Virus record (IMG/VR): IMGVR_UViG_2740892433_000003
Strand: one strand, 5' to 3'
DNA: 30,819 nt
Source: a virus
Taxonomy: Duplodnaviria > Heunggongvirae > Uroviricota > Caudoviricetes
Both the position numbers and the translations under genes were made by a program. Shown in pieces: positions 5,413 to 24,668 of this stretch (position 1 is its first letter; each line of letters opens with the position of its first letter). The notes below the pieces were generated by a model. That model did no database searches. It was not told the DNA's origin and worked only from the letters and a program-made list of their open reading frames with translations.

Positions 5413-6603
5413 TTAATTGCTGTTAACCGAGGTGACCAGATTTGCCAGGTATTTATCGGTAATACGCTGGCGCAGGGTCAGGTTTTCAAGAGGAGGCACC
5501 GGGGTATAGTCGTAGTCGATATACAGTTTTCCGGCCTTGAGGGTTTCCGCATCGTTGGATTCTTCGCTGAACCAGCAGGTCGCATCCACGATATAGCCGT
5601 TTGTTTTCAGCTCACGGAATTTGGCATTAATGCCGTCAACGATGTCGCGAATCAGCGTTGCGGTGATGGGCTTGTCCACCGCCCACATGTGCGCCTCAGC
5701 CATCGTGTCGGCCAGCACCTGCGCGGTGCGGGTGTAGTTTTCAAAGAGGAACAGCGGGTCATCAGAGCAGGTACGGTTACCCCAGAAGCGGAAACCGTCG
5801 CGGCGAATCAGCGTTGTGACACCAGACTCGTTAAGCAGGTCAGCATCGGTGCCGGACTCCTGCAAATCCCAGAAGACGGATGCGCTGATGCCGGTAACAC
5901 CGTTCACCCCGACATTGGACAGCGTTTTATGCCAGCCCTGCTCCTGGTCGATTTTAGCGCGCAGACCCAGCGCACGGGCGGTGGCATACGCGGTGGCGGT
6001 GGTACTGCTGACCGTATCCCATGCGAGGAAATCCGGCCAGATGACCATCAGCTCACGCTGGCTGAAATTCTGACGGTAGGCTTTCACCTCGGAAATGGTT
6101 TTACAGTCCCATGCGCTGATATACCCGAAAGCGCGCAGCTTCTGACAGACTGATGCCAGTGCAACAGCCACCTCTTTGGTGTCCAGTCCCGGCACACCGA
6201 GAATACGCGGTTTAACACCGGTTACCGACTCCGCCGCCAGCAGGGCTTTCAGTCCGGTGTACTGACCATTTTCGTCGGTGGTGCCGATGATATTGGAAAC
6301 GGTCTGCGCGAGTTTCGTTTCTTCGTCGTCGCCGGTGCCGTCTTCCACGCGCACAACAACGGTGACCGGTTTTGACTGGTCTGCGATGGCCTGTAACGAC
6401 GCCGCCAGCGTGCCTTTTTTACCGGCCTTTGCAATTGCGCTCTGCACATTGGTAATCAGCACCGGTTTATTGAGGGGGAAGGTTTCCGCATCCGCATCGC
6501 TGGCCGTGCAGACCATGCCGACAATGGCCGTGGATACGGTGGAAATGACGCGGGTGCCGTCGTTAATTTCCAGCACCTGCACGCCGTGATGATAGTCACT
6601 CAT
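5413..6603 (-). CDS. FI: Contractile tail sheath protein gpFI
   Basis: 396 aa, P2 FI length; GGAG RBS 8 nt upstream of the ATG at 6603..6601. Confidence 0.92.
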   Translation of the reverse strand: MSDYHHGVQVLEINDGTRVISTVSTAIVGMVCTASDADAETFPLNKPVLITNVQSAIAKAGKKGTLAASLQAIADQSKPVTVVVRVEDGTGDDEETKLAQTVSNIIGTTDENGQYTGLKALLAAESVTGVKPRILGVPGLDTKEVAVALASVCQKLRAFGYISAWDCKTISEVKAYRQNFSQRELMVIWPDFLAWDTVSSTTATAYATARALGLRAKIDQEQGWHKTLSNVGVNGVTGISASVFWDLQESGTDADLLNESGVTTLIRRDGFRFWGNRTCSDDPLFLFENYTRTAQVLADTMAEAHMWAVDKPITATLIRDIVDGINAKFRELKTNGYIVDATCWFSEESNDAETLKAGKLYIDYDYTPVPPLENLTLRQRITDKYLANLVTSVNSN

Positions 6604-6700
6604 CCGTTTAACTCCGTGGTTAATGGGTGCAACTATTTTCCGTTGGGTAGTGCATGAGACGCTATTTGACCTGGCTGGTCAGTGGATGAAACAACAGATA

Positions 6701-6725
6701 AAGAAAAAGCGGGCAATTCGCCCGC
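6701..6725 (-). terminator. Rho-independent terminator ending the G/cargo transcript before FI
   Basis: Perfect stem gcgggc(6709-6714)/gcccgc(6720-6725) with loop aattc; on the minus strand it is followed by UUUUUCUUUAUC (6708..6697). Confidence 0.6.
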
Positions 6726-6726
6726 C

Positions 6727-6744
6727 TGTCCTGATTTGTACACA
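6727..6744 (-). promoter_or_regulatory. Candidate Ogr-dependent late-promoter element (TGT-N12-ACA dyad) upstream of FI (putative P_F)
   Basis: Exact TGTcctgatttgtacACA (TGT 6727-6729, 12-nt spacer, ACA 6742-6744), ~130 nt upstream of the FI start. P2 late promoters carry a TGT-N12-ACA dyad near -55 (recalled). Position relative to the transcription start is not verified. Confidence 0.3.
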
Positions 6745-6932
6745 CTCATTTTCCGACTGACAATTTACATAACCCAAAAGTTATCAAATCTGACAGTCTG
6801 CTTTGATCAAGAAGCGGACATTTGCCTGTCAGGGTATATGCCGCTCTGCGGTTATTATCCAGAATCAATAATTCATCTGAGTTGGATTACATATAAAACA
6901 TAGTTATCCCATGAATAACCATTAGCAGATCA

Positions 6933-7526
6933 TCAATTATGTAAATCTTTTGTTTCAGGTTTTTTGAGGTGTTGTGACAACAAATGGCTATAGCGTTTAA
7001 GCAAAATATTAGAAAGATTAAACTCATTCATGAAGTGTTCTTCTAATAAGTAACCATCAATATCAACTTTAATATCATTATTGCTTTTCATCTTCTGTAA
7101 CGTAGATTTTACACACTCCAGCAGGATGCTTTGCTCATTGTAATAGTCCATAAGAAGAGTAACATCCTCTTTATCAAGTTTACTTAATTCACTGAAGTAG
7201 GCTTTAAACACTTTATCAGTCTGGTTTAATGCAACCTGTAAGCGAGGCCCTCCTAATGATTTGACATTAATGGCAAAAGGCTCGCCAACAAAATGCTCCG
7301 AATTTTCGTCAAAGCCAATATGTCTCGTTTTATCAAGAAAAGTGAGAGCGCGATGGTTATTAGCGATTTCATATGCAAACATTGTTCTGATACTGTCCCT
7401 CTCAGCCTCCATGCTTATATCATCACGGTGATTTGTGTAAAATATATTTCCAACAAAGAGAACCATAGCAAGAATCACTGAACTTGCCTCCCAGTTAATA
7501 TTTTTTAATCGTCGCTTAGTAAACAT
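6933..7526 (-). CDS. Hypothetical single-pass membrane protein (197 aa) in the Z/fun cargo position; candidate superinfection-exclusion or abortive-infection protein
   Basis: ATG at 7526..7524 with AAGGTG RBS 5 nt upstream; N-terminal basic segment MFTKRRLKNINWE followed by hydrophobic helix ASSVILAMVLFVGNIFY; AT-rich codon usage unlike flanking G and FI; sits exactly between G and FI. Confidence 0.75.
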   Translation of the reverse strand: MFTKRRLKNINWEASSVILAMVLFVGNIFYTNHRDDISMEAERDSIRTMFAYEIANNHRALTFLDKTRHIGFDENSEHFVGEPFAINVKSLGGPRLQVALNQTDKVFKAYFSELSKLDKEDVTLLMDYYNEQSILLECVKSTLQKMKSNNDIKVDIDGYLLEEHFMNEFNLSNILLKRYSHLLSQHLKKPETKDLHN

Positions 7527-7747
7527 ACCGCACCTTAATTATCAAAAATATTCCTTCAGTGTTATCTGGTTAGCCTAAACCAAGTCATTAAAGTCCGCAG
7601 GATATCATATACATAAAATGTATTGATTAGAATTTGCACTAATAAAATAATGCTTTACTAAAATCTACTCCAGACACAGAGCGGTCTGTCAGATTAGGCT
7701 TTACTCTGTGCTATAGATATGTAAGCTCACACCAGAGATCATACAAC

Positions 7748-8275
7748 TTATTGCGGCATTTCCGGCCATTCGGGATTTGCAGGATCCACACGACTGACCA
7801 GAACGCTGTAGCGTTCCCATGCTTCCAGTCGGCTGCGTTCCTCATCCGTCGCCATATTCAGCCTGACAGCGCGTTCCAGCGGAAAAATCACGGATTCAGC
7901 TTCGGAAAGTAAAGCTGCCTTTTGTGATTCTGCCTGTTGCTCCTGTTCATCTGCCGTATAAATCCGCTTAATCACGGCACCATCCTTAAACATCCATTTA
8001 CCTGAGTCATCAGCACGTCGGTTGGAGGTAATATCAGGAACCTCGACAACGCTGAAACCTTCAGGGTTAAGCGTTGAAGCATCTCTGGTGATGCCGACAA
8101 TTATATTATTCTCGTCGTAAACAATCTTTATCGTGTCTTCCTGAAAATTACTTACTTCCTCATACCAGTTTTTTCCCTCTTCGGACCATAACCAGATAAC
8201 ATCAAAATTTTTTGTCAGTTGATATTGGGCAACAGTTTTTGGATTACCCGCAGTAATATTTTTTAAATGCTGCAT
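7748..8275 (-). CDS. G: Tail fiber assembly protein gpG
   Basis: 175 aa, P2 gpG length, immediately downstream of H. Confidence 0.88.
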
Positions 8276-8278
8276 AAA

Positions 8279-10324
8279 TTACACCTGTGCGACGTTATAC
8301 CATGTGCCATTGATGTATTTTTGTATTGGCCTGAATACTGCGGGGTCATCACCATCGACTTCACCGACAATACCAAGCCCGGTAATTACGTGCCCTGCTT
8401 TCTCATACATCACCCCTTTCTGCATGGTCTGGACAACACGTGTGCCAAGTCTGATATCTCTCACATAGCGGGAATCAAAGTTACCGTAATCCGAGGGATT
8501 AACACGCCCCGTAATATTTATGGTCTTATTACTTTGAATGCTTCCGGAAACAAAGCGCATAACATGGACGTTATTAGCATAAACATCCAGATTACCATCG
8601 CCATTTTGTTTAAATCCGGTGTCGTTATCACCAAGAACAATAGAGTTCCCACCCAACGCGTTATTCGTGCCAAGTGCCAGCCCGCCATCAATCCTGGCAC
8701 CATTACCAACAGACACAACTCCTGTTCTTAAGTTGATGCCGAATGGCCTTAATGGCCCAATATCTCCATTTTCACCCTCATTTTCTCGTGTAGGGATGAT
8801 ATACAGGTTTTCTTCAGAACGGCGAAAAATAGCACCAAAAGATGAATTAAATATCCTCAGTGCATTGACTGTAGATATTTTTACTTCACTGCTGAAAAGG
8901 GCTTTAACAAGAACATACAGAGCATCCCATTTAAGATTCATCAGGTCTTTTGTTGTGGTGCTCTGGCGACTTCTCCATTTGAAGTATTCATTGCCGTTGT
9001 CACCTGTTTCAAACCACATATATGAATCAGTGTCACCATCGGCATCATTTTTAAATCCAATCTTCGCCCAGTCAGTATTTCGAATCCAGGCAAGGATTGA
9101 GTCGTTTTCAAAAGTAAGTCCACCGGACAAGGTATCGCCATTTTTTTGCACGGCGTTCCCGGCTCGGTTTACCGTTTCCTGTAAACCGAGATATTCGATA
9201 ACGGCGGAAACGGTCGATTTCGCAAGAATATCCCGCCCGACTTTTGTCAGAGTTGCCAGACTGGCAACATCATTCCCCGTAAAATACGGAAACCTGTCTG
9301 CCGCAGTAGCAAGCCCCGCCAGCGCCGTCAGGGTAGCATCTTTCGGTTGCTTACCCGCAAGCGCATTAGTCATAGTGGTAGCAAAATTCGGGTCGTTGCC
9401 CAGCGCCGCTGCCAGCTCGTTCAGCGTATTCAGTGCGTCAGGCGACGAGTCTACAAGGGCGGCAATCGCGGCCATAACGAAAGCCGTGTTTGCGATCTGA
9501 GTATTATTCGTTCCCTGTCGCGCAGTTGGCGTCGTTGGCGTTCCGGTCAGTGCAGGGCTGTTTAATGGCGCTTTCTTGTTCGTTTCATCCATTACCGTCT
9601 TAACGGCTTTTGGTGTTGCGGCCAGTGTTTCAGACGTGCTGTTGGTCGCACTGCTTAGCTGGACAAGACCTTTTCGCGCTGTGGTAGCGTCCTGTGCGGT
9701 ATATTTCCCGTTAGCAAGGTCATATGCGGCCTTAACCGCTTTCGGCGTTGCGGCCAGTGTTTCAGATATGCTGTTGGTCGCACTGCTTAACTGAGTAAAA
9801 CCTTTTGCGGTCAGCGAGGCGTCCGGGTGACGTCGTGACTGTTCGTGCTCTGCAATTTTGTCATCAACGTAATCCTGCGTCGCCATCACCGTTGTGGTGT
9901 CAATGGTCAGCTCCACTGAGGCCACACTGCTGACGATGATGACCATGCGACAGGTCTGCGAACGCCCTGAGCCTTCGGCAAGAGCGGGTTTATAACTTTC
10001 GGCCATGTTCGCCACGGCAATTAGCGTTCCCGCATCATCGTACAGGCCAAGCTCACGCATCCAGAAACCGCCCACCTCCGGCGGAATAACCAGCTCTGCG
10101 ATAATATAATTACTGTTTCGTTTGTCCTGGCTGATTTTATTCAGCGCATGTCGCCAGACTTTATGGATAAGCCCGGTCTGTCCGGCATCCGGGACAGGCA
10201 ATTTACCACCGCCATCCCCGACGGCCATCGTGGTAATGTTGACCTTCCGCCCTCCCGGCGTGGTTGCCGCTGCCAGCTTTGCTGCACCGGCAGTGGTGAT
10301 AACGGTTCTGAATTTTGTGCTCAT
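8279..10324 (-). CDS. H: Tail fiber protein gpH
   Basis: 681 aa; conserved N-terminal region MSTKFRTVITTAGAAKLAAA...; internal repeated motif LSSATNS(I/T)SETLAATPKAVK; C-terminal half more AT-rich (receptor-binding region). Confidence 0.9.
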   Translation of the reverse strand: MSTKFRTVITTAGAAKLAAATTPGGRKVNITTMAVGDGGGKLPVPDAGQTGLIHKVWRHALNKISQDKRNSNYIIAELVIPPEVGGFWMRELGLYDDAGTLIAVANMAESYKPALAEGSGRSQTCRMVIIVSSVASVELTIDTTTVMATQDYVDDKIAEHEQSRRHPDASLTAKGFTQLSSATNSISETLAATPKAVKAAYDLANGKYTAQDATTARKGLVQLSSATNSTSETLAATPKAVKTVMDETNKKAPLNSPALTGTPTTPTARQGTNNTQIANTAFVMAAIAALVDSSPDALNTLNELAAALGNDPNFATTMTNALAGKQPKDATLTALAGLATAADRFPYFTGNDVASLATLTKVGRDILAKSTVSAVIEYLGLQETVNRAGNAVQKNGDTLSGGLTFENDSILAWIRNTDWAKIGFKNDADGDTDSYMWFETGDNGNEYFKWRSRQSTTTKDLMNLKWDALYVLVKALFSSEVKISTVNALRIFNSSFGAIFRRSEENLYIIPTRENEGENGDIGPLRPFGINLRTGVVSVGNGARIDGGLALGTNNALGGNSIVLGDNDTGFKQNGDGNLDVYANNVHVMRFVSGSIQSNKTINITGRVNPSDYGNFDSRYVRDIRLGTRVVQTMQKGVMYEKAGHVITGLGIVGEVDGDDPAVFRPIQKYINGTWYNVAQV
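9599..9793. repeat. Two ~63-bp direct repeats (~90% identical, 132 bp apart) inside tail fiber gene H
   Basis: 9599-9661 cttaacggcttttggtgttgcggccagtgtttcagacgtgctgttggtcgcactgcttagctg against 9731-9793 cttaaccgctttcggcgttgcggccagtgtttcagatatgctgttggtcgcactgcttaactg; encodes the repeated peptide ...QLSSATNS(I/T)SETLAATPKAVK. Confidence 0.75.
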
Positions 10325-19017: not shown

Positions 19018-19190
19018 TGTCAGGAGTCCTGAATAGTGATTAGAGGAGTCACATGTCGGCATCAGTTTCCCGACGATGCGCATCCTCCGCCATCAGTCCC
19101 GGATGGCTTATCACTGACACAACAGCACCTTAGCGAATCGCGGGGCGCGACTCAGTAGCCTTGCCGTGTATTCATCACGGCGAGGTATTC

Positions 19191-20963
19191 ATGACCATCA
19201 CCACAGACACCACTCTTTTACACGACCCGCGTCGTCAGGCGGCGCTGCTGTACTGGCAGGGGTTTTCCGTGCCGCAGATTGCCGCCATGTTGCAGATGAA
19301 ACGCCCGACGGTGCAGAGCTGGAAACAGCGCGACGGCTGGGACAGCGTTGCCCCCATCAGCCGTGTCGAAATGAGTCTGGAAGCGCGACTGACCCAGCTC
19401 ATCATCAAACCGCAGAAAACCGGCGGTGACTTCAAGGAAATTGACCTGCTCGGACGCCAGATTGAACGACTGGCACGGGTCAACCGCTACAGCCAGACCG
19501 GCAACGAGGCAGACCTTAATCCGAACGTCGCTAACCGCAACAAAGGCGGGCGGCGCAAACCGAAAAAGAATTTTTTCAGTGACGAGGCCATCGAAAAGCT
19601 GGAGCAGATTTTCTTTGAGCAGTCTTTCGAATATCAGTTGCACTGGTATCGCGCCGGGCTTGAGCACCGCATCCGCGATATCCTGAAATCCCGCCAGATT
19701 GGCGCGACGTTTTATTTTTCCCGCGAGGCGCTGCTGCGCGCCCTGAAAACCGGTCATAACCAGATTTTTCTGTCGGCCAGTAAAACGCAGGCGTATGTGT
19801 TCCGCGAATACATCATCGCCTTTGCCCGTCTGGTTGACGTTGACCTGACCGGTGACCCGATTGTCCTGGGCAATAACGGCGCAAAACTGATTTTTCTCGG
19901 CACCAACTCCAACACCGCACAGAGCCATAACGGCGACCTGTACGTCGACGAGATTTTCTGGATCCCGAATTTTCAGGTACTGCGTAAGGTGGCATCAGGT
20001 ATGGCCTCACAGAGTCACCTGCGTTCGACCTATTTCTCCACCCCGTCCACGCTGGCGCACGACGCCTACCCGTTCTGGTCAGGTGAACTGTTCAACCGGG
20101 GACGCGCCAGCGCCGCCGAACGCGTGGAAATCGACGTCAGTCATAACGCCCTTGCCGGAGGTCTTCTCTGTGCGGACGGCCAGTGGCGGCAGATTGTCAC
20201 CATTGAGGACGCCCTGAAAGGCGGCTGCACGCTGTTCGACATTGAGCAGCTCAAACGCGAAAACAGCGCCGACGATTTTAAAAACCTGTTCATGTGTGAA
20301 TTTGTTGACGACAAGGCATCGGTGTTCCCGTTCGAGGAGCTGCAACGCTGCATGGTCGACACGCTGGAAGAATGGGAAGACTATGCACCCTTTGCCGCCA
20401 ATCCGTTCGGCTCCCGCCCGGTATGGATTGGTTACGACCCGTCACACCGTGGCGACAGTGCCGGATGCGTGGTACTGGCACCGCCGGTGGTGGCCGGTGG
20501 CAAATTCAGAATACTTGAGCGTCACCAGTGGAAAGGCATGGACTTTGCCACCCAGGCTGAATCCATCCGCAAACTCACCGAAAAATATAACGTCGAATAC
20601 ATCGGTATTGATGCCACCGGCCTCGGTGTCGGCGTGTTCCAGCTCGTGCGCTCGTTCTATCCTGCCGCGCGCGATATCCGCTACACACCGGAAATGAAAA
20701 CCGCAATGGTGCTCAAGGCAAAAGACGTTATCCGCCGTGGCTGTCTGGAATATGACGTCAGCGCCACCGACATCACCAGCTCGTTTATGGCTATCCGCAA
20801 GACCATGACCAGCAGCGGACGCAGCGCCACCTATGAGGCCAGCCGCAGCGAGGAAGCCAGCCACGCCGACCTCGCCTGGGCGACCATGCACGCCCTGTTA
20901 AATGAGCCACTCACCGCCGGTATCAGCACCCCGCTGACATCCACCATTCTGGAGTTTTACTGA
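19191..20963 (+). CDS. P: Terminase large (ATPase) subunit gpP
   Basis: 590 aa from the ATG at 19191 (MTITTDTTLLHD...) with GAGGT RBS; the track ORF starts at a TTG at 19161; P2 gpP length. Confidence 0.9.
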   Translation: MTITTDTTLLHDPRRQAALLYWQGFSVPQIAAMLQMKRPTVQSWKQRDGWDSVAPISRVEMSLEARLTQLIIKPQKTGGDFKEIDLLGRQIERLARVNRYSQTGNEADLNPNVANRNKGGRRKPKKNFFSDEAIEKLEQIFFEQSFEYQLHWYRAGLEHRIRDILKSRQIGATFYFSREALLRALKTGHNQIFLSASKTQAYVFREYIIAFARLVDVDLTGDPIVLGNNGAKLIFLGTNSNTAQSHNGDLYVDEIFWIPNFQVLRKVASGMASQSHLRSTYFSTPSTLAHDAYPFWSGELFNRGRASAAERVEIDVSHNALAGGLLCADGQWRQIVTIEDALKGGCTLFDIEQLKRENSADDFKNLFMCEFVDDKASVFPFEELQRCMVDTLEEWEDYAPFAANPFGSRPVWIGYDPSHRGDSAGCVVLAPPVVAGGKFRILERHQWKGMDFATQAESIRKLTEKYNVEYIGIDATGLGVGVFQLVRSFYPAARDIRYTPEMKTAMVLKAKDVIRRGCLEYDVSATDITSSFMAIRKTMTSSGRSATYEASRSEEASHADLAWATMHALLNEPLTAGISTPLTSTILEFY

Positions 20964-21997
20964 TGAGCAAGAAAAAAGGGAAAACACCGCAACCTGCGGC
21001 AAAAAAAATGACCGCCAGCGCCCCGAAAATGGAGGCATTCACCTTTGGTGAGCCGGTGCCGGTACTCGACCGCCGTGACATTCTGGATTACGTCGAGTGC
21101 ATCAGTAACGGCAGATGGTATGAGCCACCGGTCAGCTTTACCGGTCTGGCAAAAAGTCTGCGTGCTGCCGTGCATCACAGCTCACCGATTTACGTTAAAC
21201 GCAATATTCTGGCCTCGACATTTATCCCGCATCCGTGGCTTTCGCAACAGGATTTCAGCCGCTTTGTGCTGGATTTTCTGGTGTTCGGTAATGCGTTTCT
21301 GGAAAAGCGTTACAGCACCACCGGTAAGGTCATCAGACTGGAAACCTCACCGGCAAAATATACCCGCCGTGGCGTGGAGGAGGATGTTTACTGGTGGGTG
21401 CCGTCCTTCAACGAGCCGACAGCCTTCACGCCCGGCTCCGTGTTTCACCTGCTGGAGCCGGATATCAATCAGGAGCTGTACGGCCTGCCGGAATATCTCA
21501 GCGCCCTTAATTCTGCCTGGCTGAATGAATCAGCCACACTGTTCCGCCGCAAGTATTACGAAAACGGCGCTCATGCCGGATACATCATGTACGTCACTGA
21601 TGCCGTACAGGATCGCAACGATATCGAAATGCTCCGCGAAAACATGGTGAAGTCGAAAGGCCGCAACAACTTTAAAAATCTGTTTCTCTATGCCCCACAG
21701 GGGAAAGCCGACGGCATCAAAATTATCCCGCTCAGTGAAGTGGCAACGAAGGACGATTTTTTTAATATCAAAAAAGCCAGCGCCGCTGACCTGCTGGACG
21801 CGCACCGCATCCCCTTTCAGTTGATGGGCGGCAAGCCGGAGAACGTCGGGTCGCTGGGTGATATTGAGAAAGTGGCAAAGGTCTTTGTCCGCAATGAGCT
21901 TATCCCGCTACAGGACAGGATCCGCGAGATAAACGGCTGGCTCGGCCAGGAGGTCATCCGCTTTAAAAACTACTCACTGGACACTGACAACGGCTGA
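20963..21997 (+). CDS. Q: Portal protein gpQ
   Basis: 344 aa, P2 gpQ length; ATG overlaps the P stop (TGATG) with GGAG upstream. Confidence 0.92.
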   Translation: MSKKKGKTPQPAAKKMTASAPKMEAFTFGEPVPVLDRRDILDYVECISNGRWYEPPVSFTGLAKSLRAAVHHSSPIYVKRNILASTFIPHPWLSQQDFSRFVLDFLVFGNAFLEKRYSTTGKVIRLETSPAKYTRRGVEEDVYWWVPSFNEPTAFTPGSVFHLLEPDINQELYGLPEYLSALNSAWLNESATLFRRKYYENGAHAGYIMYVTDAVQDRNDIEMLRENMVKSKGRNNFKNLFLYAPQGKADGIKIIPLSEVATKDDFFNIKKASAADLLDAHRIPFQLMGGKPENVGSLGDIEKVAKVFVRNELIPLQDRIREINGWLGQEVIRFKNYSLDTDNG

Positions 21998-22316: not shown

Positions 22317-24668
22317 TCAAAGTTCTGTGTATATTAGTTGTAACATATCTCGCGCGTAGCTTCTCATATCTTCATCAGTCCATTCACGGATAACGTGCAT
22401 AGGCTCATTTAGTTCAGTCCTAAAGCCATGAATTCTTCTGGCCGTGGCTGCGTCCAAAATACCATCATCAGCCAGTCGGCTAATACACACAGAAAAATCC
22501 GTTCTATCATTCAAGTTTCGTTCAGCCAGTTGTTTACGATAACGAGAACGGAATTCTGCTTCCAGATATGGCCTTAAAGATTGTATTATCGTTTTATCGG
22601 TATCTACACCATCTATAAAGCCAACAATCCTCTCATAGCACTTTTCATGGTCTGAAGCTATCAACTGCTCTACTTGTAGTGGTTCAAAATTAGAACCATT
22701 AGAACCTTGTTTGATCTGAAGGATTCTATCTAAGTTAAATTTTTTAGATGTCTTTGCTGCCATTCCTTTATAGTGTGTAGTAATAAACATCTGTTTTACA
22801 TTAGGCTGTAACTCATACAATCTCTGCAAAATACAAGATATTCTTTCCTCATCAAAACTTGTCACAGGATCATCCATAATCAAAATAGCTTTTGACTTCT
22901 CATCCTCAGAAAGTAAATATATTTTAGAAAGAAATATACATAGAGCTAAAGCCCGGCGATCTGATTCACTAAACAAACAATTAAGTTTGTTTTTTTCAAC
23001 TGACTTCCCATTAAATGAAACGTCAAGTTCATAAACAATTTTCGTACCTTGCCTGTTTATTTTTTTATTTATAGCGAACTTACTTGACCCAACAGAACAA
23101 AACAGAGAATTAATATGCTCAAAATATTTATTTAAAAATTCCTCCTGGCATTCTTCTAATGCCTTTTTATTCTCTTTATAGTTATTTTCTCTAACCTCTA
23201 TTTCTCTTTTTAAATCAAGATATTCTCGACAGGCTGGCTCAAGAGATAATCTTTTTTTATTAGCTTCCAATTCCCTAAGATCTTTATGATGGCTATCCAT
23301 CAATGCGTCTAATGCTGTGGCATTGACACTTTCTTTATACTTCACTAACTCATCATTGAGTTGCTGAATAATGCTATTATATGATTCTAATTCACCATAA
23401 ATTTCATTTTCAAATTGTAAAAGAGCCGAAAAGTCAAACTCCTTCATTTCATTGTATACAGCTAATTCTTTTTCATCATATATACGCTCCAGCGATTGCT
23501 GAGCCTCTAGCAGTTCTTGATTAAATTTTAATATATCATTTCTTGCCTGTTCATAAATACTGCTACATGAGGCAAGCAATCCTTTGTTATCTAATTCTTT
23601 TTTTATCTCCTCCTCTAAATACTGCGACAAAACACTAATATTATCCCCATGTATGCCATCAATTACATCTAGCGAGACAAATGAAAGGTTACTTCGTCTT
23701 ATCTCTTTTATTTCTTTTTTCATACTCTCAATGAAGCGTATAAATGACTCATCAAATGAATCTTTATAAGCATTAATCAGTTCTTTTGATTCTCCTGATA
23801 TATTTTGGCCGCAAAATGGACATATTTCTGAAACCATACTGAGGCCATTTGATGCCCATCCGTTAAAATGCTCATGAGCTTTTACTTTCTCTTTATGCCG
23901 TTCCAATATAGAAAGCGCATCATCATGAATTTTGGCCATCCCAGAAGAAAGACATTTGTTAACCCTAATGGAAATATCTTTCAATTTTGGCGTGCAGTTA
24001 ACTAAATCAAGTAATGGCCTAGCTTTAATATATTTTATGGATGCTTTTTTCTTCTCAATTTCTTGTATTAACTCAGTAACCCCGTTTATTTTTGACTCAA
24101 TAAAATCGAGATCTGTTATGACAGGTTCACTAATGGCATACTCATCAACATTAGTAATTTGATGTGATTGAATCAAACTCTTTTTATTTCTTAGCTCCCC
24201 CCTTAAACTTCTTAATTCTGAATTTTCCTTTTCCAATGCTTCAAAAGCAGCAACATTATCTTCACCCAAAATAAATGCAGTAACGCATTCAGAGTTTTCT
24301 CGATTAGATATCGTACCAGCCATTACATTTCTATGAACAAAACTCTGATCAAAGATATATAATTTGGAATCAGGTGGGGGTAATTCTAACCATTTATCTA
24401 CATTAAATTTAACAACTTTATTTAAATCACCCTCTGTGAATTGCAATTCAATCTTTGGAGTTACGTCCCCTTCCCCCTCCAGAATAGTCTTCCTGTTGAC
24501 AACTAATTCAGGAGAGTTCGTTGACAAGGAATAAAAGATGTCACAAAGAGTACTTTTACCATGTCTATTTTCACCGTAGATAACATTTATGTTATTAAAC
24601 TCATAAGAACGTGAATGAGCTCTAATATAGTTACCAACGCCCTCTATTGATTTAATCCTCTTTAACAT
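22317..24668 (-). CDS. Rad50-like split ABC ATPase (783 aa) with coiled-coil CPxC hook and C-terminal putative nuclease domain; RloC/PrrC-like candidate anti-phage effector in the tin/old cargo position
   Basis: ATG at 24668..24666 with AAGGA RBS; Walker A G32ENRHGKST40; Q-loop Q108 (IFDQSF); ~390-aa heptad-rich Lys/Glu segment with C283-P-F-C286 near its centre; signature-like S567ESDRRALAL; Walker B A594ILIMDD600; H-loop FITTH632; extra C-terminal domain 645-783 with R699-x3-E703, H747 and R750-x7-H758. Strongly AT-rich. No adjacent partner gene. Confidence 0.55.
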   Translation of the reverse strand: MLKRIKSIEGVGNYIRAHSRSYEFNNINVIYGENRHGKSTLCDIFYSLSTNSPELVVNRKTILEGEGDVTPKIELQFTEGDLNKVVKFNVDKWLELPPPDSKLYIFDQSFVHRNVMAGTISNRENSECVTAFILGEDNVAAFEALEKENSELRSLRGELRNKKSLIQSHQITNVDEYAISEPVITDLDFIESKINGVTELIQEIEKKKASIKYIKARPLLDLVNCTPKLKDISIRVNKCLSSGMAKIHDDALSILERHKEKVKAHEHFNGWASNGLSMVSEICPFCGQNISGESKELINAYKDSFDESFIRFIESMKKEIKEIRRSNLSFVSLDVIDGIHGDNISVLSQYLEEEIKKELDNKGLLASCSSIYEQARNDILKFNQELLEAQQSLERIYDEKELAVYNEMKEFDFSALLQFENEIYGELESYNSIIQQLNDELVKYKESVNATALDALMDSHHKDLRELEANKKRLSLEPACREYLDLKREIEVRENNYKENKKALEECQEEFLNKYFEHINSLFCSVGSSKFAINKKINRQGTKIVYELDVSFNGKSVEKNKLNCLFSESDRRALALCIFLSKIYLLSEDEKSKAILIMDDPVTSFDEERISCILQRLYELQPNVKQMFITTHYKGMAAKTSKKFNLDRILQIKQGSNGSNFEPLQVEQLIASDHEKCYERIVGFIDGVDTDKTIIQSLRPYLEAEFRSRYRKQLAERNLNDRTDFSVCISRLADDGILDAATARRIHGFRTELNEPMHVIREWTDEDMRSYARDMLQLIYTEL

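What the first reader, a model, noticed from the sequence alone, without database searches (positions are those of the whole stretch)
6933..7526. Orphan AT-rich membrane-anchored protein in the Z/fun cargo slot between tail genes G and FI
Seen in sequence: a 197-aa ORF with a good RBS (AAGGTG) and AT-rich composition sits alone between G and FI, bounded downstream by a terminator. The product has a short basic N-terminus, one predicted TM helix (ASSVILAMVLFVGNIFY) and a ~165-aa soluble domain with no motif I recognise. Established knowledge: this is the position of P2 Z/fun, which excludes phage T5, and a known variable cargo site in P2-like prophages. Inference: a single-gene exclusion or abortive-infection factor acting at the envelope. 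I cannot tell from memory whether it is a diverged Fun homologue or an unrelated protein.
Basis: partly seen in the sequence, partly recalled or inferred. Interest (0 to 1): 0.65.

Follow-up and report, generated by a model that had tools for sequence, protein, structure and literature searches.

The report
Membrane-anchored cargo gene in P2 tail slot
A P2-like prophage of E. coli carries, in its known swap-in slot between two tail genes, a real and conserved gene for a small membrane-anchored helical protein of untested function; it belongs to a rare family that travels alone on phages, satellites and plasmids, and it is a reasonable but ordinary candidate for a phage-exclusion factor.

Summary
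A 197-aa ORF (6933-7526, minus strand) lies alone between tail genes G and FI. Its GC is 0.35 against 0.52 for the window, it has an AAGGTG ribosome-binding site, and a strong terminator follows it.

It is a real gene: dN/dS is 0.05-0.17 between divergent copies. It is not an orphan. It matches phrog_3829 (unknown function) over its full length and occurs in 201 of 5,426 complete E. coli genomes. NCBI sometimes names it "lysogenic conversion protein"; I found no experiment behind that name.

It is unrelated to P2 Fun(Z) and to four other cargoes of this slot, and it matches no Pfam, NCBIfam, PADLOC or PDB family.

The AlphaFold model (pLDDT 84) shows a basic N-terminus and one membrane helix running into a four-helix bundle with no catalytic fold. 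The membrane helix is the most conserved segment. Predicted topology is N-in, bundle in the periplasm.

Relatives always travel as single genes: in P4-like satellites, conjugative elements, plasmids and islands. Some travel as a ~0.96-kb cassette with inverted-repeat ends.

My best guess, at low confidence, is envelope-level exclusion. Against this, published lysogens carrying the gene showed no protection attributable to it; T5 was not tested.

The parts
6933..7526 (-). 197-aa cargo ORF (identical to WP_032157885.1): basic N-terminus, one membrane helix, four-helix bundle
   Evidence: ORF. RefSeq identity. phrog_3829 full length, E 8e-133. dN/dS 0.05-0.17. AlphaFold model with pLDDT 84.3.
7434..7493 (-). 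Codons for the membrane helix (residues 12-31). This is the most conserved segment of the family, with invariant N11 W12 E13 A14 S16 V17 L19 A20 M21 F24.
   Evidence: Hydropathy and flanking charges. Invariant columns. Per-segment conservation of 0.90 (close family) and 0.66 (wide family), the highest of all segments.
7531..7536 (-). Shine-Dalgarno AAGGTG, 4 nt before the ATG, inside the block TTTTTGATAATTAAGG that is invariant across replicons
   Evidence: Sequence read. Alignment A3.
7599..7626 (-). Candidate extended -10 promoter: TCAATA at 7626-7621, TG at 7607-7606, TATCCT at 7604-7599. It lies in an upstream block that travels with the gene in other replicons.
   Evidence: My own reading of the conserved block in alignment A3. 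The consensus scan did not report it, because its -35 matches only 3 of 6. Inferred, not shown.
6823..7674 (-). Cargo cassette, GC 0.344. Homology with P2, Wphi, L-413C, P2-EC30 and P2-EC31 stops at 6818-6822 on one side and at 7675 on the other.
   Evidence: Local blastn breakpoints. GC.
7661..7695 (.). G-side arm of the inverted repeat that brackets the slot
   Evidence: the repeat finder pair I2. Annotated 'left inverted repeat' in the homologous records AJ512676 and AJ512677. Homologous terminal repeats flank the same gene in L005 and L012.
6787..6820 (.). FI-side arm of the inverted repeat (backbone-conserved)
   Evidence: The annotated 'Right inverted repeat' in AJ512677 maps here.
6699..6727 (-). 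Rho-independent terminator (stem 6727-6707 plus T-run). It ends transcription coming from G and the cargo, and it is a backbone feature just upstream of the FI late promoter.
   Evidence: It lies in the block conserved among P2-like phages with other cargoes.
6629..6700 (-). Late promoter of the F operon, placed by homology with P2: activator-binding site at about 6672-6700 and transcription start at about 6629
   Evidence: P2 annotation, mapped through the 88.6% alignment.
7748..8275 (-). Gene G, tail-fibre assembly protein (upstream neighbour)
   Evidence: Pfam Caudo_TAP, E 5e-35. RefSeq annotation.
5413..6603 (-). Gene FI, tail sheath (downstream neighbour)
   Evidence: Pfam Phage_sheath_1 and Phage_sheath_1C. 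RefSeq annotation.

Best explanation
The ORF is an accessory ('moron'-type) gene carried in the variable Z/fun slot of a P2-like prophage. It encodes a bitopic inner-membrane protein. The short basic N-terminus faces the cytoplasm. One sequence-constrained membrane helix runs straight into a periplasmic four-helix bundle with no catalytic site.

Most likely it acts by binding rather than by catalysis. Through its membrane helix and bundle it would bind either a host inner-membrane component or part of an incoming phage's DNA-delivery apparatus. That would block genome entry of a narrow set of phages, in the manner of HK97 gp15 or P22 SieA.

Shown here: gene reality, position, foreign origin, family, solitary mobility, predicted architecture.
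Inferred: topology, expression in the lysogen, and the exclusion function itself.
For: 1. Location. It sits in the documented P2 Z/fun cargo site. P2 Fun(Z) there blocks T5, and the tail-gene hotspot is reported to hold 16% of P2 defence systems (PMC13586616; bioRxiv 10.1101/2024.10.15.618418).

2. Slot turnover. Five other unrelated AT-rich cargoes occupy the same breakpoints.

3. Solitary mobility. Relatives are always single genes on mobile elements:
- 29 IMG/VR loci with the identical G-ORF-FI layout, despite G alleles of 75-100% identity.
- Four P4-like satellites, directly after the alpha primase. That position is a reported minor P4 defence hotspot.
- An IncFII plasmid, a plasmid leading region, conjugative elements and a Pantoea island.
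- Neighbours include a Dcm-type methylase with DUF4928, a TIR protein 39 nt upstream, and a Cap4-nuclease gene.

4. Architecture.
- One hydrophobic segment, and an N-terminus that is net positive in all full-length members.
- CxxxxC pairs in the C-terminal domain of four distant members, compatible with periplasmic disulfides.
- The model shows helix 12-66 running from the membrane into a four-helix bundle.

5. Constrained membrane helix. It is the most conserved segment, which argues for a specific intramembrane contact rather than a passive anchor.

6. Selection and regulation. Purifying selection is clear, and about 200 bp of upstream sequence travels with the gene between replicons.

7. 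Design precedent. HK97 gp15 is an inner-membrane exclusion protein encoded by a moron inside a tail operon (PMC3594210). [quoted passage not shown]
Against: - No sequence or profile similarity to any known exclusion, Abi or defence family: PHROGs gives only an unknown-function family, and PADLOC, Pfam and NCBIfam give nothing.
- The fold is generic, so it carries no functional information.
- AC1 and SIDE7 carry the gene. Of the four P2-like E. coli C lysogens tested against lambda, T4, P1, 186, CLB_P2, LF82_P8, AL505_P2 and T7, only AC1 was reported to protect, and a cloned TIR system from elsewhere reproduced that protection. The SIDE7 result is inferred from the paper's silence.
- Topology and lysogenic expression are predictions. 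The candidate promoter is weak, and AT-rich cargo is often silenced by H-NS (bioRxiv 10.64898/2026.09.05.749240).
- There is no terminator between G and the ORF, so expression may come partly or mainly from late read-through.
- Presence on plasmids and conjugative elements does not single out phage exclusion over other envelope functions.
Confidence: 0.35

Rival explanations
1. Abortive-infection or signalling-type membrane effector. The helical domain senses a phage cue or a small molecule, and the conserved membrane helix then oligomerises to disturb the inner membrane and stop the infected cell.
For: - The membrane helix is the most conserved part and carries polar or small residues (N11, E13, S16, N27) suited to helix-helix packing.
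- A distant homologue (P0044, 28% identity) lies 39 nt downstream of a TIR-domain gene, next to an integrase. Another is divergent from a Cap4-nuclease gene.
- Membrane proteins are assumed effectors in several TIR or cyclase systems (PMC9122126).
Against: - There is only one membrane helix.
- No partner gene is present in the window, in the 29 viral loci or in the P4-like loci.
- The TIR pairing is a single independent context.
- The membrane proteins of the AC1 TIR system are not homologous to this family.
- No lysogen phenotype was reported.
Confidence: 0.2
2. Lysogenic-conversion factor unrelated to phages: an envelope protein that improves host fitness. Examples would be immunity to a periplasm-acting bacteriocin, tailocin or T6SS effector, conjugation entry exclusion, or stress or serum resistance.
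For: - The predicted periplasm-facing, membrane-tethered small helical protein is a common design for immunity proteins (established knowledge, not tested here).
- The Pantoea copy lies about 4 kb from an Rhs toxin and SUKH immunity cluster.
- Copies occur on plasmids and conjugative elements.
- P2 hotspots also carry non-defence cargo such as cytolethal distending toxin and partition systems (PMC9122126).
- The negative lysogen phage panel fits this reading.
Against: - No cognate toxin gene is adjacent in any locus examined.
- Its two recurrent homes, the P2 tail slot and the P4 primase-att slot, are both reported as defence hotspots.
- There is no similarity to any known immunity family.
Confidence: 0.2
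3. Lytic-cycle accessory. The gene would be made mainly by read-through of the late V-to-G tail operon. It would act in the producing cell, for example to stop progeny or competitors from injecting into an already infected cell, or to tune the envelope before lysis.
For: - It is on the same strand as G and FI.
- No terminator-like site lies between G (ends 7748) and the ORF. The only strong terminator follows the ORF, at 6727-6707.
- Spacing is identical in 29 viral loci.
Against: - The gene is absent from most P2-like phages. Of the 1,001 E. coli genomes that match the flank, 201 carry it, so it is dispensable.
- The same gene, with its own upstream region, lives outside any late operon on plasmids, islands and satellites.
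Confidence: 0.1
4. Selfish or functionless passenger: a cassette kept in place only by its inverted-repeat ends and the recombination activity of the slot.
For: The gene sits in an inverted-repeat-bounded unit of about 0.96 kb that recurs in unrelated replicons.
Against: - dN/dS is 0.05-0.17 over saturated synonymous divergence.
- Length and architecture are conserved down to about 20% identity.
- The copies in P4-like satellites and Salmonella lack the repeats yet keep the ORF intact.
Confidence: 0.05

Closest known systems
Phage P2 Fun(Z), the classical occupant of the G-FI slot
   Same: It occupies the same insertion site between G and FI, with the same backbone breakpoints. It is also AT-rich (GC 0.33 against 0.35 here), nonessential, single-gene cargo.
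   Different: No sequence similarity: BLASTP E 3.3 and a negative profile score. Fun(Z) is 528 aa against 197 aa here. It is on the opposite strand to the tail genes, whereas this ORF is co-oriented. The T5 block of Fun(Z) has not been tested for this protein.
HK97 gp15 (YebO-like moron, superinfection exclusion)
   Same: It is a small inner-membrane protein encoded by a GC-deviant insert inside a tail-gene cluster. It is a single gene with no enzymatic domain (PMC3594210). This is the closest analogue in design.
   Different: No Pfam family matched at all, so no YebO-family match either. This protein is much larger, with a ~165-aa helical domain. Exclusion has been shown for gp15 but not here. 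The terminator here belongs to the phage backbone, not to the insert.
P22 SieA
   Same: It is a prophage-encoded inner-membrane protein that acts alone at the DNA-entry step (PMC10883804).
   Different: No similarity was detected: PHROGs returned only phrog_3829. The topologies differ. The target specificity of SieA (P22 ejection proteins) has no counterpart established here.
phrog_3829 / NCBI 'lysogenic conversion protein' (e.g. WP_032157885.1)
   Same: This is the same family: a full-length match at E 8e-133. The identical protein is in RefSeq and was seen on 161 contigs.
   Different: The family has no assigned function. I found no paper or experiment behind the NCBI name.
Periplasmic four-helix-bundle sensor domains of chemoreceptors and histidine kinases (Tar, Tsr, PcaY, PilJ)
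   Different: The top matches are de novo designed bundles and talin rods, so the resemblance is generic. There is no Pfam 4HB_MCP match, no second membrane helix and no signalling output domain.

Membership tests
P2 Fun(Z) | Sequence homology to Fun(Z) (NP_046777.1) | tested here: not met
   BLASTP E 3.3 over 34 residues. hmmsearch with the family profile scored -3.6 bits.
P2 Fun(Z) | Located between tail genes G and FI | tested here: met
   Backbone alignment with P2. Neighbours confirmed by Pfam.
P2 Fun(Z) | Transcribed opposite to the tail genes | tested here: not met
   fun(Z) is on the opposite strand to G and FI in P2. This ORF is on the same strand.
P2 Fun(Z) | Blocks growth of phage T5 | not testable with these tools
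   Needs plaque assays. The published AC1 and SIDE7 lysogen panel did not include T5.
Moron (independent accessory transcription unit in a phage genome) | An extra insert between genes that are adjacent in relatives, with deviant base composition | tested here: met
   Breakpoints at 6818-6822 and 7675. GC 0.344 against 0.515.
Moron (independent accessory transcription unit in a phage genome) | Own promoter | tested here: inconclusive
   About 200 bp of upstream sequence is conserved across replicons and contains an extended -10-like element (my reading). The consensus scan found only a 9/12 site too close to the start codon.
Moron (independent accessory transcription unit in a phage genome) | Own terminator | tested here: not met
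   The only minus-strand terminator downstream (6727-6707) lies in backbone DNA shared with phages that carry other cargo.
Moron (independent accessory transcription unit in a phage genome) | Expressed from the repressed prophage | not testable with these tools
   Needs RNA-seq or proteomics of lysogens.
Superinfection-exclusion proteins (HK97 gp15/YebO, P22 SieA and others) | Homology to a described exclusion family | tested here: not met
   Pfam and NCBIfam gave nothing, and PHROGs gave only the unknown-function family phrog_3829.
Superinfection-exclusion proteins (HK97 gp15/YebO, P22 SieA and others) | Inner-membrane localisation | tested here: inconclusive
   One hydrophobic segment and a positively charged N-terminus across the family. 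The model shows a membrane-length helix. This is prediction only.
Superinfection-exclusion proteins (HK97 gp15/YebO, P22 SieA and others) | Blocks DNA entry without blocking adsorption | not testable with these tools
   Needs adsorption and DNA-entry assays. Indirect published lysogen data are negative for eight phages.
Known anti-phage defence systems (PADLOC-DB 2.0.0) | Match to a model of a known or candidate defence protein | tested here: not met
   No hit for the protein. Across 24 diverse family members there were only scattered single hits at E > 0.004.
phrog_3829 | Full-length profile match | tested here: met
   E 8.1e-133, residues 1-197 on profile positions 1-197 of 197.
TIR-associated membrane partner | Adjacent TIR-domain gene | tested here: not met
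   There is no TIR gene in the slot or in the 29 viral and 4 satellite loci. Only the distant homologue P0044 has one.

The most novel reading that the evidence does not exclude
The family is a previously unrecognised envelope-immunity module used by very different mobile elements: P2-like helper phages, their P4-like satellites, conjugative elements and plasmids. It would block passage of foreign DNA, or of contractile-tail or tailocin machinery, across the inner membrane through a sequence-specific membrane-helix contact. In some lineages it would have been recruited as the membrane arm of a TIR system. A second unexcluded reading is that the inverted-repeat ends mark a cassette-exchange mechanism that supplies the P2 Z slot from other replicons.
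Probability: 0.15. Interest if true: 0.7.

Novelty: new member of a known kind. Interest (0 to 1): 0.4.

Why it matters
The slot is already known as a defence and cargo hotspot, so finding cargo there is expected. What is useful is a defined, experimentally untouched single-gene family:

- It is common in E. coli: 3.7% of complete genomes, and about 20% of the P2-like prophages that match this flank.
- It is under purifying selection.
- It is small enough to clone easily.
- It is shared by a helper phage lineage and its satellite lineage.

If it turns out to be an exclusion factor, it adds a new inner-membrane exclusion family. It would also give a way into how contractile-tail phages cross the inner membrane. 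If it is not anti-phage, it is a counter-example to guilt-by-association in P2 and P4 hotspots.

Tried and rejected
Family and fold searches that gave nothing specific:
- Pfam, NCBIfam, PADLOC and PDB-sequence searches with the single protein, with 24 diverse members and with a profile.
- Rfam on the whole window and on the slot.

Hypotheses rejected:
- Fun(Z) homology.
- Homology to the membrane proteins of the AC1 TIR system.
- An Ogr-type TGT-N12-ACA late promoter upstream of the ORF. There is none between 7527 and 7747, and the motif count in the window is at chance level.
- Plasmid prevalence: only 3 of 72,556 records.
- The consensus promoter hit ATAACA-16-GATAAT at 7565-7538. Its -10 abuts the Shine-Dalgarno sequence, so I do not believe it.

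Literature dead ends:
- No mention of the accession numbers or of phrog_3829 in any held paper.
- Nothing in the DefensePredictor supplements.
- No supplements are held for PMC13586616.
- Nilsson et al. 2004 and Odegrip et al. 2006 are not held. Statements about the inverted repeats therefore rest on the GenBank annotations of AJ512676 and AJ512677 and on my own alignments.

Other:
- The species-representative genome scan found only one locus.

Full report
**1. The observation**

The window carries an ATG-initiated ORF of 197 aa at 6933..7526 on the minus strand. AAGGTG sits at 7536-7531, four bases before the start (sequence read).

GC drops to 0.33-0.38 across 6600-7800, against 0.55-0.59 in the flanking tail genes. 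The ORF is 0.348 GC, the insert 0.344 and the whole window 0.515.

The upstream neighbour, 7748-8275(-), is a Caudo_TAP tail-fibre assembly protein. The downstream neighbour, 5413-6603(-), is a tail sheath protein. Identical DNA in E. coli O25:H4 strain 18044 is annotated the same way.

Alignment with phage P2 puts the ORF exactly where P2 carries fun(Z), between G and FI.

A strong rho-independent terminator lies on the minus strand at 6727-6707, followed by a T-run. The region gave 4 terminator-like sites against 0.9 expected from shuffles.

The product has a basic N-terminus (4 K/R), a single hydrophobic segment at residues about 12-31, and about 165 residues with no Pfam, NCBIfam or PADLOC match.

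**2. It is a real gene with a family, not an orphan**

The protein matches PHROG family phrog_3829 (function unknown) end to end at E 8e-133. The exact sequence is WP_032157885.1 and was seen on 161 contigs. Its 90%-identity cluster has 569 members. These are named either 'hypothetical protein' or 'lysogenic conversion protein', and I found no experiment behind the second name.

The 1,144-bp G-FI interval is present at 80% coverage or more in 201 of 5,426 complete E. coli genomes, always on the chromosome. It is also in 13 phage records.

A word-indexed search found 37 homologues in Enterobacterales: Escherichia, Pantoea, Salmonella, Kosakonia, Pluralibacter and Enterobacter. An exhaustive profile search of 1.84 billion cluster representatives found only 27. 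The family is real but rare.

Distant members (19-38% identity) keep the same plan: basic N-terminus, one hydrophobic helix and a helical domain. R47, N57 and L117 are invariant, and A51, E53, I54 and Y129 nearly so.

Pairwise dN/dS between divergent copies is 0.05-0.17, with synonymous sites near saturation. The protein is therefore under purifying selection.

**3. Anatomy of the slot**

Homology with P2, Wphi, L-413C, P2-EC30 and P2-EC31 stops sharply at 6818-6822 on the FI side and at 7675 on the G side. The cargo is therefore about 6823-7674.

The breakpoints sit in an imperfect inverted repeat, 6787-6820 against 7661-7695 (and my alignment). The same arms are annotated as 'left' and 'right inverted repeat' in the GenBank records AJ512676 and AJ512677.

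The five other cargoes differ in length and, for two of them, in strand:
- P2 Fun(Z): 528 aa, opposite strand.
- Wphi orf44: 299 aa.
- L-413C ORF: 259 aa, opposite strand.
- P2-EC30 ORF1: 471 aa.
- P2-EC31 ORF1: 362 aa.

All five are AT-rich (GC 0.32-0.39). None is detectably similar to this protein.

- The terminator lies in the backbone block 6400-6818 that all these phages share. It sits immediately upstream of the F-operon late promoter, whose activator site maps to about 6672-6700 and whose transcription start maps to about 6629 by P2 homology.
- No terminator-like site lies between G and the ORF, and the ORF is on the same strand as the tail genes. Read-through from the late V-to-G operon is therefore plausible.

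**4. The gene moves as a unit**

In a Pantoea island (L005), a metagenomic contig (L012), a plasmid leading region (L013) and an Enterobacter IncFII plasmid (L009), nucleotide similarity extends beyond the ORF. It covers about 110-200 bp upstream and about 150 bp downstream.

These copies end in terminal inverted repeats: GCCAGGAGCGGACATT on one side and AATGTCCGCTC on the other. In L012 the repeat is 35 nt at 77% complementarity with 894 nt between the arms. These repeats are homologous to the arms of the P2 slot.

The upstream block contains the invariant stretch TTTTTGATAATTAAGG, which includes the ribosome-binding site. It also contains a conserved element that I read as an extended -10 promoter: TCAATA at 7626-7621, TG at 7607-7606 and TATCCT at 7604-7599. 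This is my inference. The consensus scan did not call it.

Copies in Salmonella and in P4-like satellites lack the repeats.

**5. Genomic company**

All 29 E. coli-type IMG/VR loci show G-ORF-FI with identical spacing, even though their G alleles range from 75 to 100% identity.

Four relatives at 60-62% identity sit directly after the alpha primase of P4-like satellites: Pantoea ananatis, two Kosakonia and one viral contig. That position is reported as a minor defence hotspot of P4 (PMC13586616).

Other copies are:
- At the end of a lambdoid prophage in Salmonella, beside a Dcm-type methylase and a DUF4928 gene.
- On plasmids.
- In a conjugative-element transfer region.
- Divergent from a Cap4-nuclease gene.
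- In one distant case (P0044), 39 nt downstream of a TIR-domain gene beside an integrase.

No partner gene recurs. The gene is very rare on plasmids overall, at 3 of 72,556 records.

**6. Structure and topology**

With a shallow alignment, AlphaFold gave pLDDT 72.8, with the other four models near 50. With the more diverse alignment, all five models agreed at 81-84 and the best reached pLDDT 84.3 and pTM 0.72.

The model has one long helix, residues 12-66, running from the membrane segment into an up-down four-helix bundle (helices 92-116, 119-148 and 151-178).

The N-terminus is net positive in every full-length member, from +1 to +7. The C-side flank is neutral or negative. Four distant members have a CxxxxC pair in the C-terminal domain. 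Together these favour an N-in topology with a periplasmic bundle, but this remains a prediction.

The membrane segment is the best-conserved part of the protein. The mean majority fraction is 0.90 in the close family and 0.66 in the wide family. N11, W12, E13, A14, S16, V17, L19, A20, M21 and F24 are invariant among close members. A passive anchor would not be this constrained, so a specific contact within the membrane is likely.

**7. What it probably does**

The combination is the design of prophage exclusion proteins: foreign single-gene cargo in a known defence and cargo slot, a constrained membrane helix, a non-enzymatic and probably periplasmic bundle, and carriage by phages, satellites, conjugative elements and plasmids.

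Two published examples share this design. HK97 gp15 is a moron inside a tail operon whose inner-membrane product blocks genome entry (PMC3594210). [quoted passage not shown]

I therefore rank envelope-level exclusion first, at only about 0.35. The rivals are:
- An abortive-infection or signalling membrane effector (0.2), supported mainly by the single TIR adjacency.
- A non-phage envelope or immunity function (0.2).
- A late-expressed lytic accessory (0.1).
- A passenger with no function (0.05), which the selection data make unlikely.

**8. Evidence against a broad anti-phage role**

Phage P2_AC1 carries a 99% identical allele. P2_SIDE7 (OU784746) carries a 94% identical one. Rousset et al. 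lysogenised E. coli C with four P2-like phages, including these two. They tested the lysogens against lambda, T4, P1, 186, CLB_P2, LF82_P8, AL505_P2 and T7.

Only AC1 was reported to protect, against lambda and LF82_P8. The cloned TIR system from the A-Q hotspot reproduced that protection (PMC9122126).

Any activity of this protein must therefore be narrow, conditional or silenced under those conditions. H-NS silencing of AT-rich prophage cargo has been described. T5, the target of P2 Fun(Z), was not in the panel. The SIDE7 result is inferred from the paper's silence, not from displayed data.

**9. Novelty and score**

The slot and its turnover are well documented. The gene is already catalogued as an unknown-function family. 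This is a new, uncharacterised member of a known kind of element: hotspot cargo or moron.

It is a good cloning target because it is common, short, under selection and shared by a helper-phage lineage and its satellite lineage. A specialist would not be surprised by it. Interest 0.4.

Noticed in passing
window 22317-24668 (-): The other classical P2 hotspot, between replication gene A and portal gene Q, holds a 783-aa AAA_13 ATPase. It matches the PADLOC candidate defence family PDC-S06 end to end at E 5e-157.
   Followed up: partly
window 6787-6820 and 7661-7695; L012 4777-4811 and 5706-5740; L005 4791-4811 and 5706-5726: The inverted-repeat arms of the P2 slot are homologous to terminal inverted repeats that flank the same gene in non-phage replicons. 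L012 has a third copy 41 nt after the right arm, which hints at tandem cassettes. No recombinase is adjacent, and the exchange mechanism is unknown.
   Followed up: partly
L019 5090-6657: A distant family member (P0044, 28% identity) lies 39 nt downstream of a 290-aa TIR-domain gene, next to an integrase in a conjugative island. This may be a two-gene system. It is a single independent context.
   Followed up: partly
L010, L011, L027, L057 (P4-like satellites): Four relatives at 60-62% identity sit directly after the satellite's alpha primase. The same family is therefore carried by both a helper-phage lineage and its satellite lineage.
   Followed up: partly
window 7800-9200: GC is also low (0.41-0.46) across G and the 3' part of tail-fibre gene H. 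G alleles next to the same cargo range from 75 to 100% identity in viral contigs. The receptor-binding module therefore appears to be swapped independently of the cargo.
   Followed up: no
window 6727-6744: A perfect TGT-N12-ACA dyad, the P2 late-activator motif, abuts the terminator stem. It lies about 30-45 nt upstream of where the P2 activator site maps by homology (about 6672-6700). The motif count in the window is at chance level.
   Followed up: no
L004 34450-36752 (E. coli O25:H4 strain 18044): In that strain the otherwise matching prophage has an IS21-family ISEc12 inserted between the terminase and portal genes. In the window the two genes are adjacent (19161-20963 and 20963-21997).
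   Followed up: no
window 6623-6760 (+): Some phage records annotate a 38-aa ORF on the opposite strand, inside the conserved F-operon promoter region. It is probably an annotation artefact.
   Followed up: no
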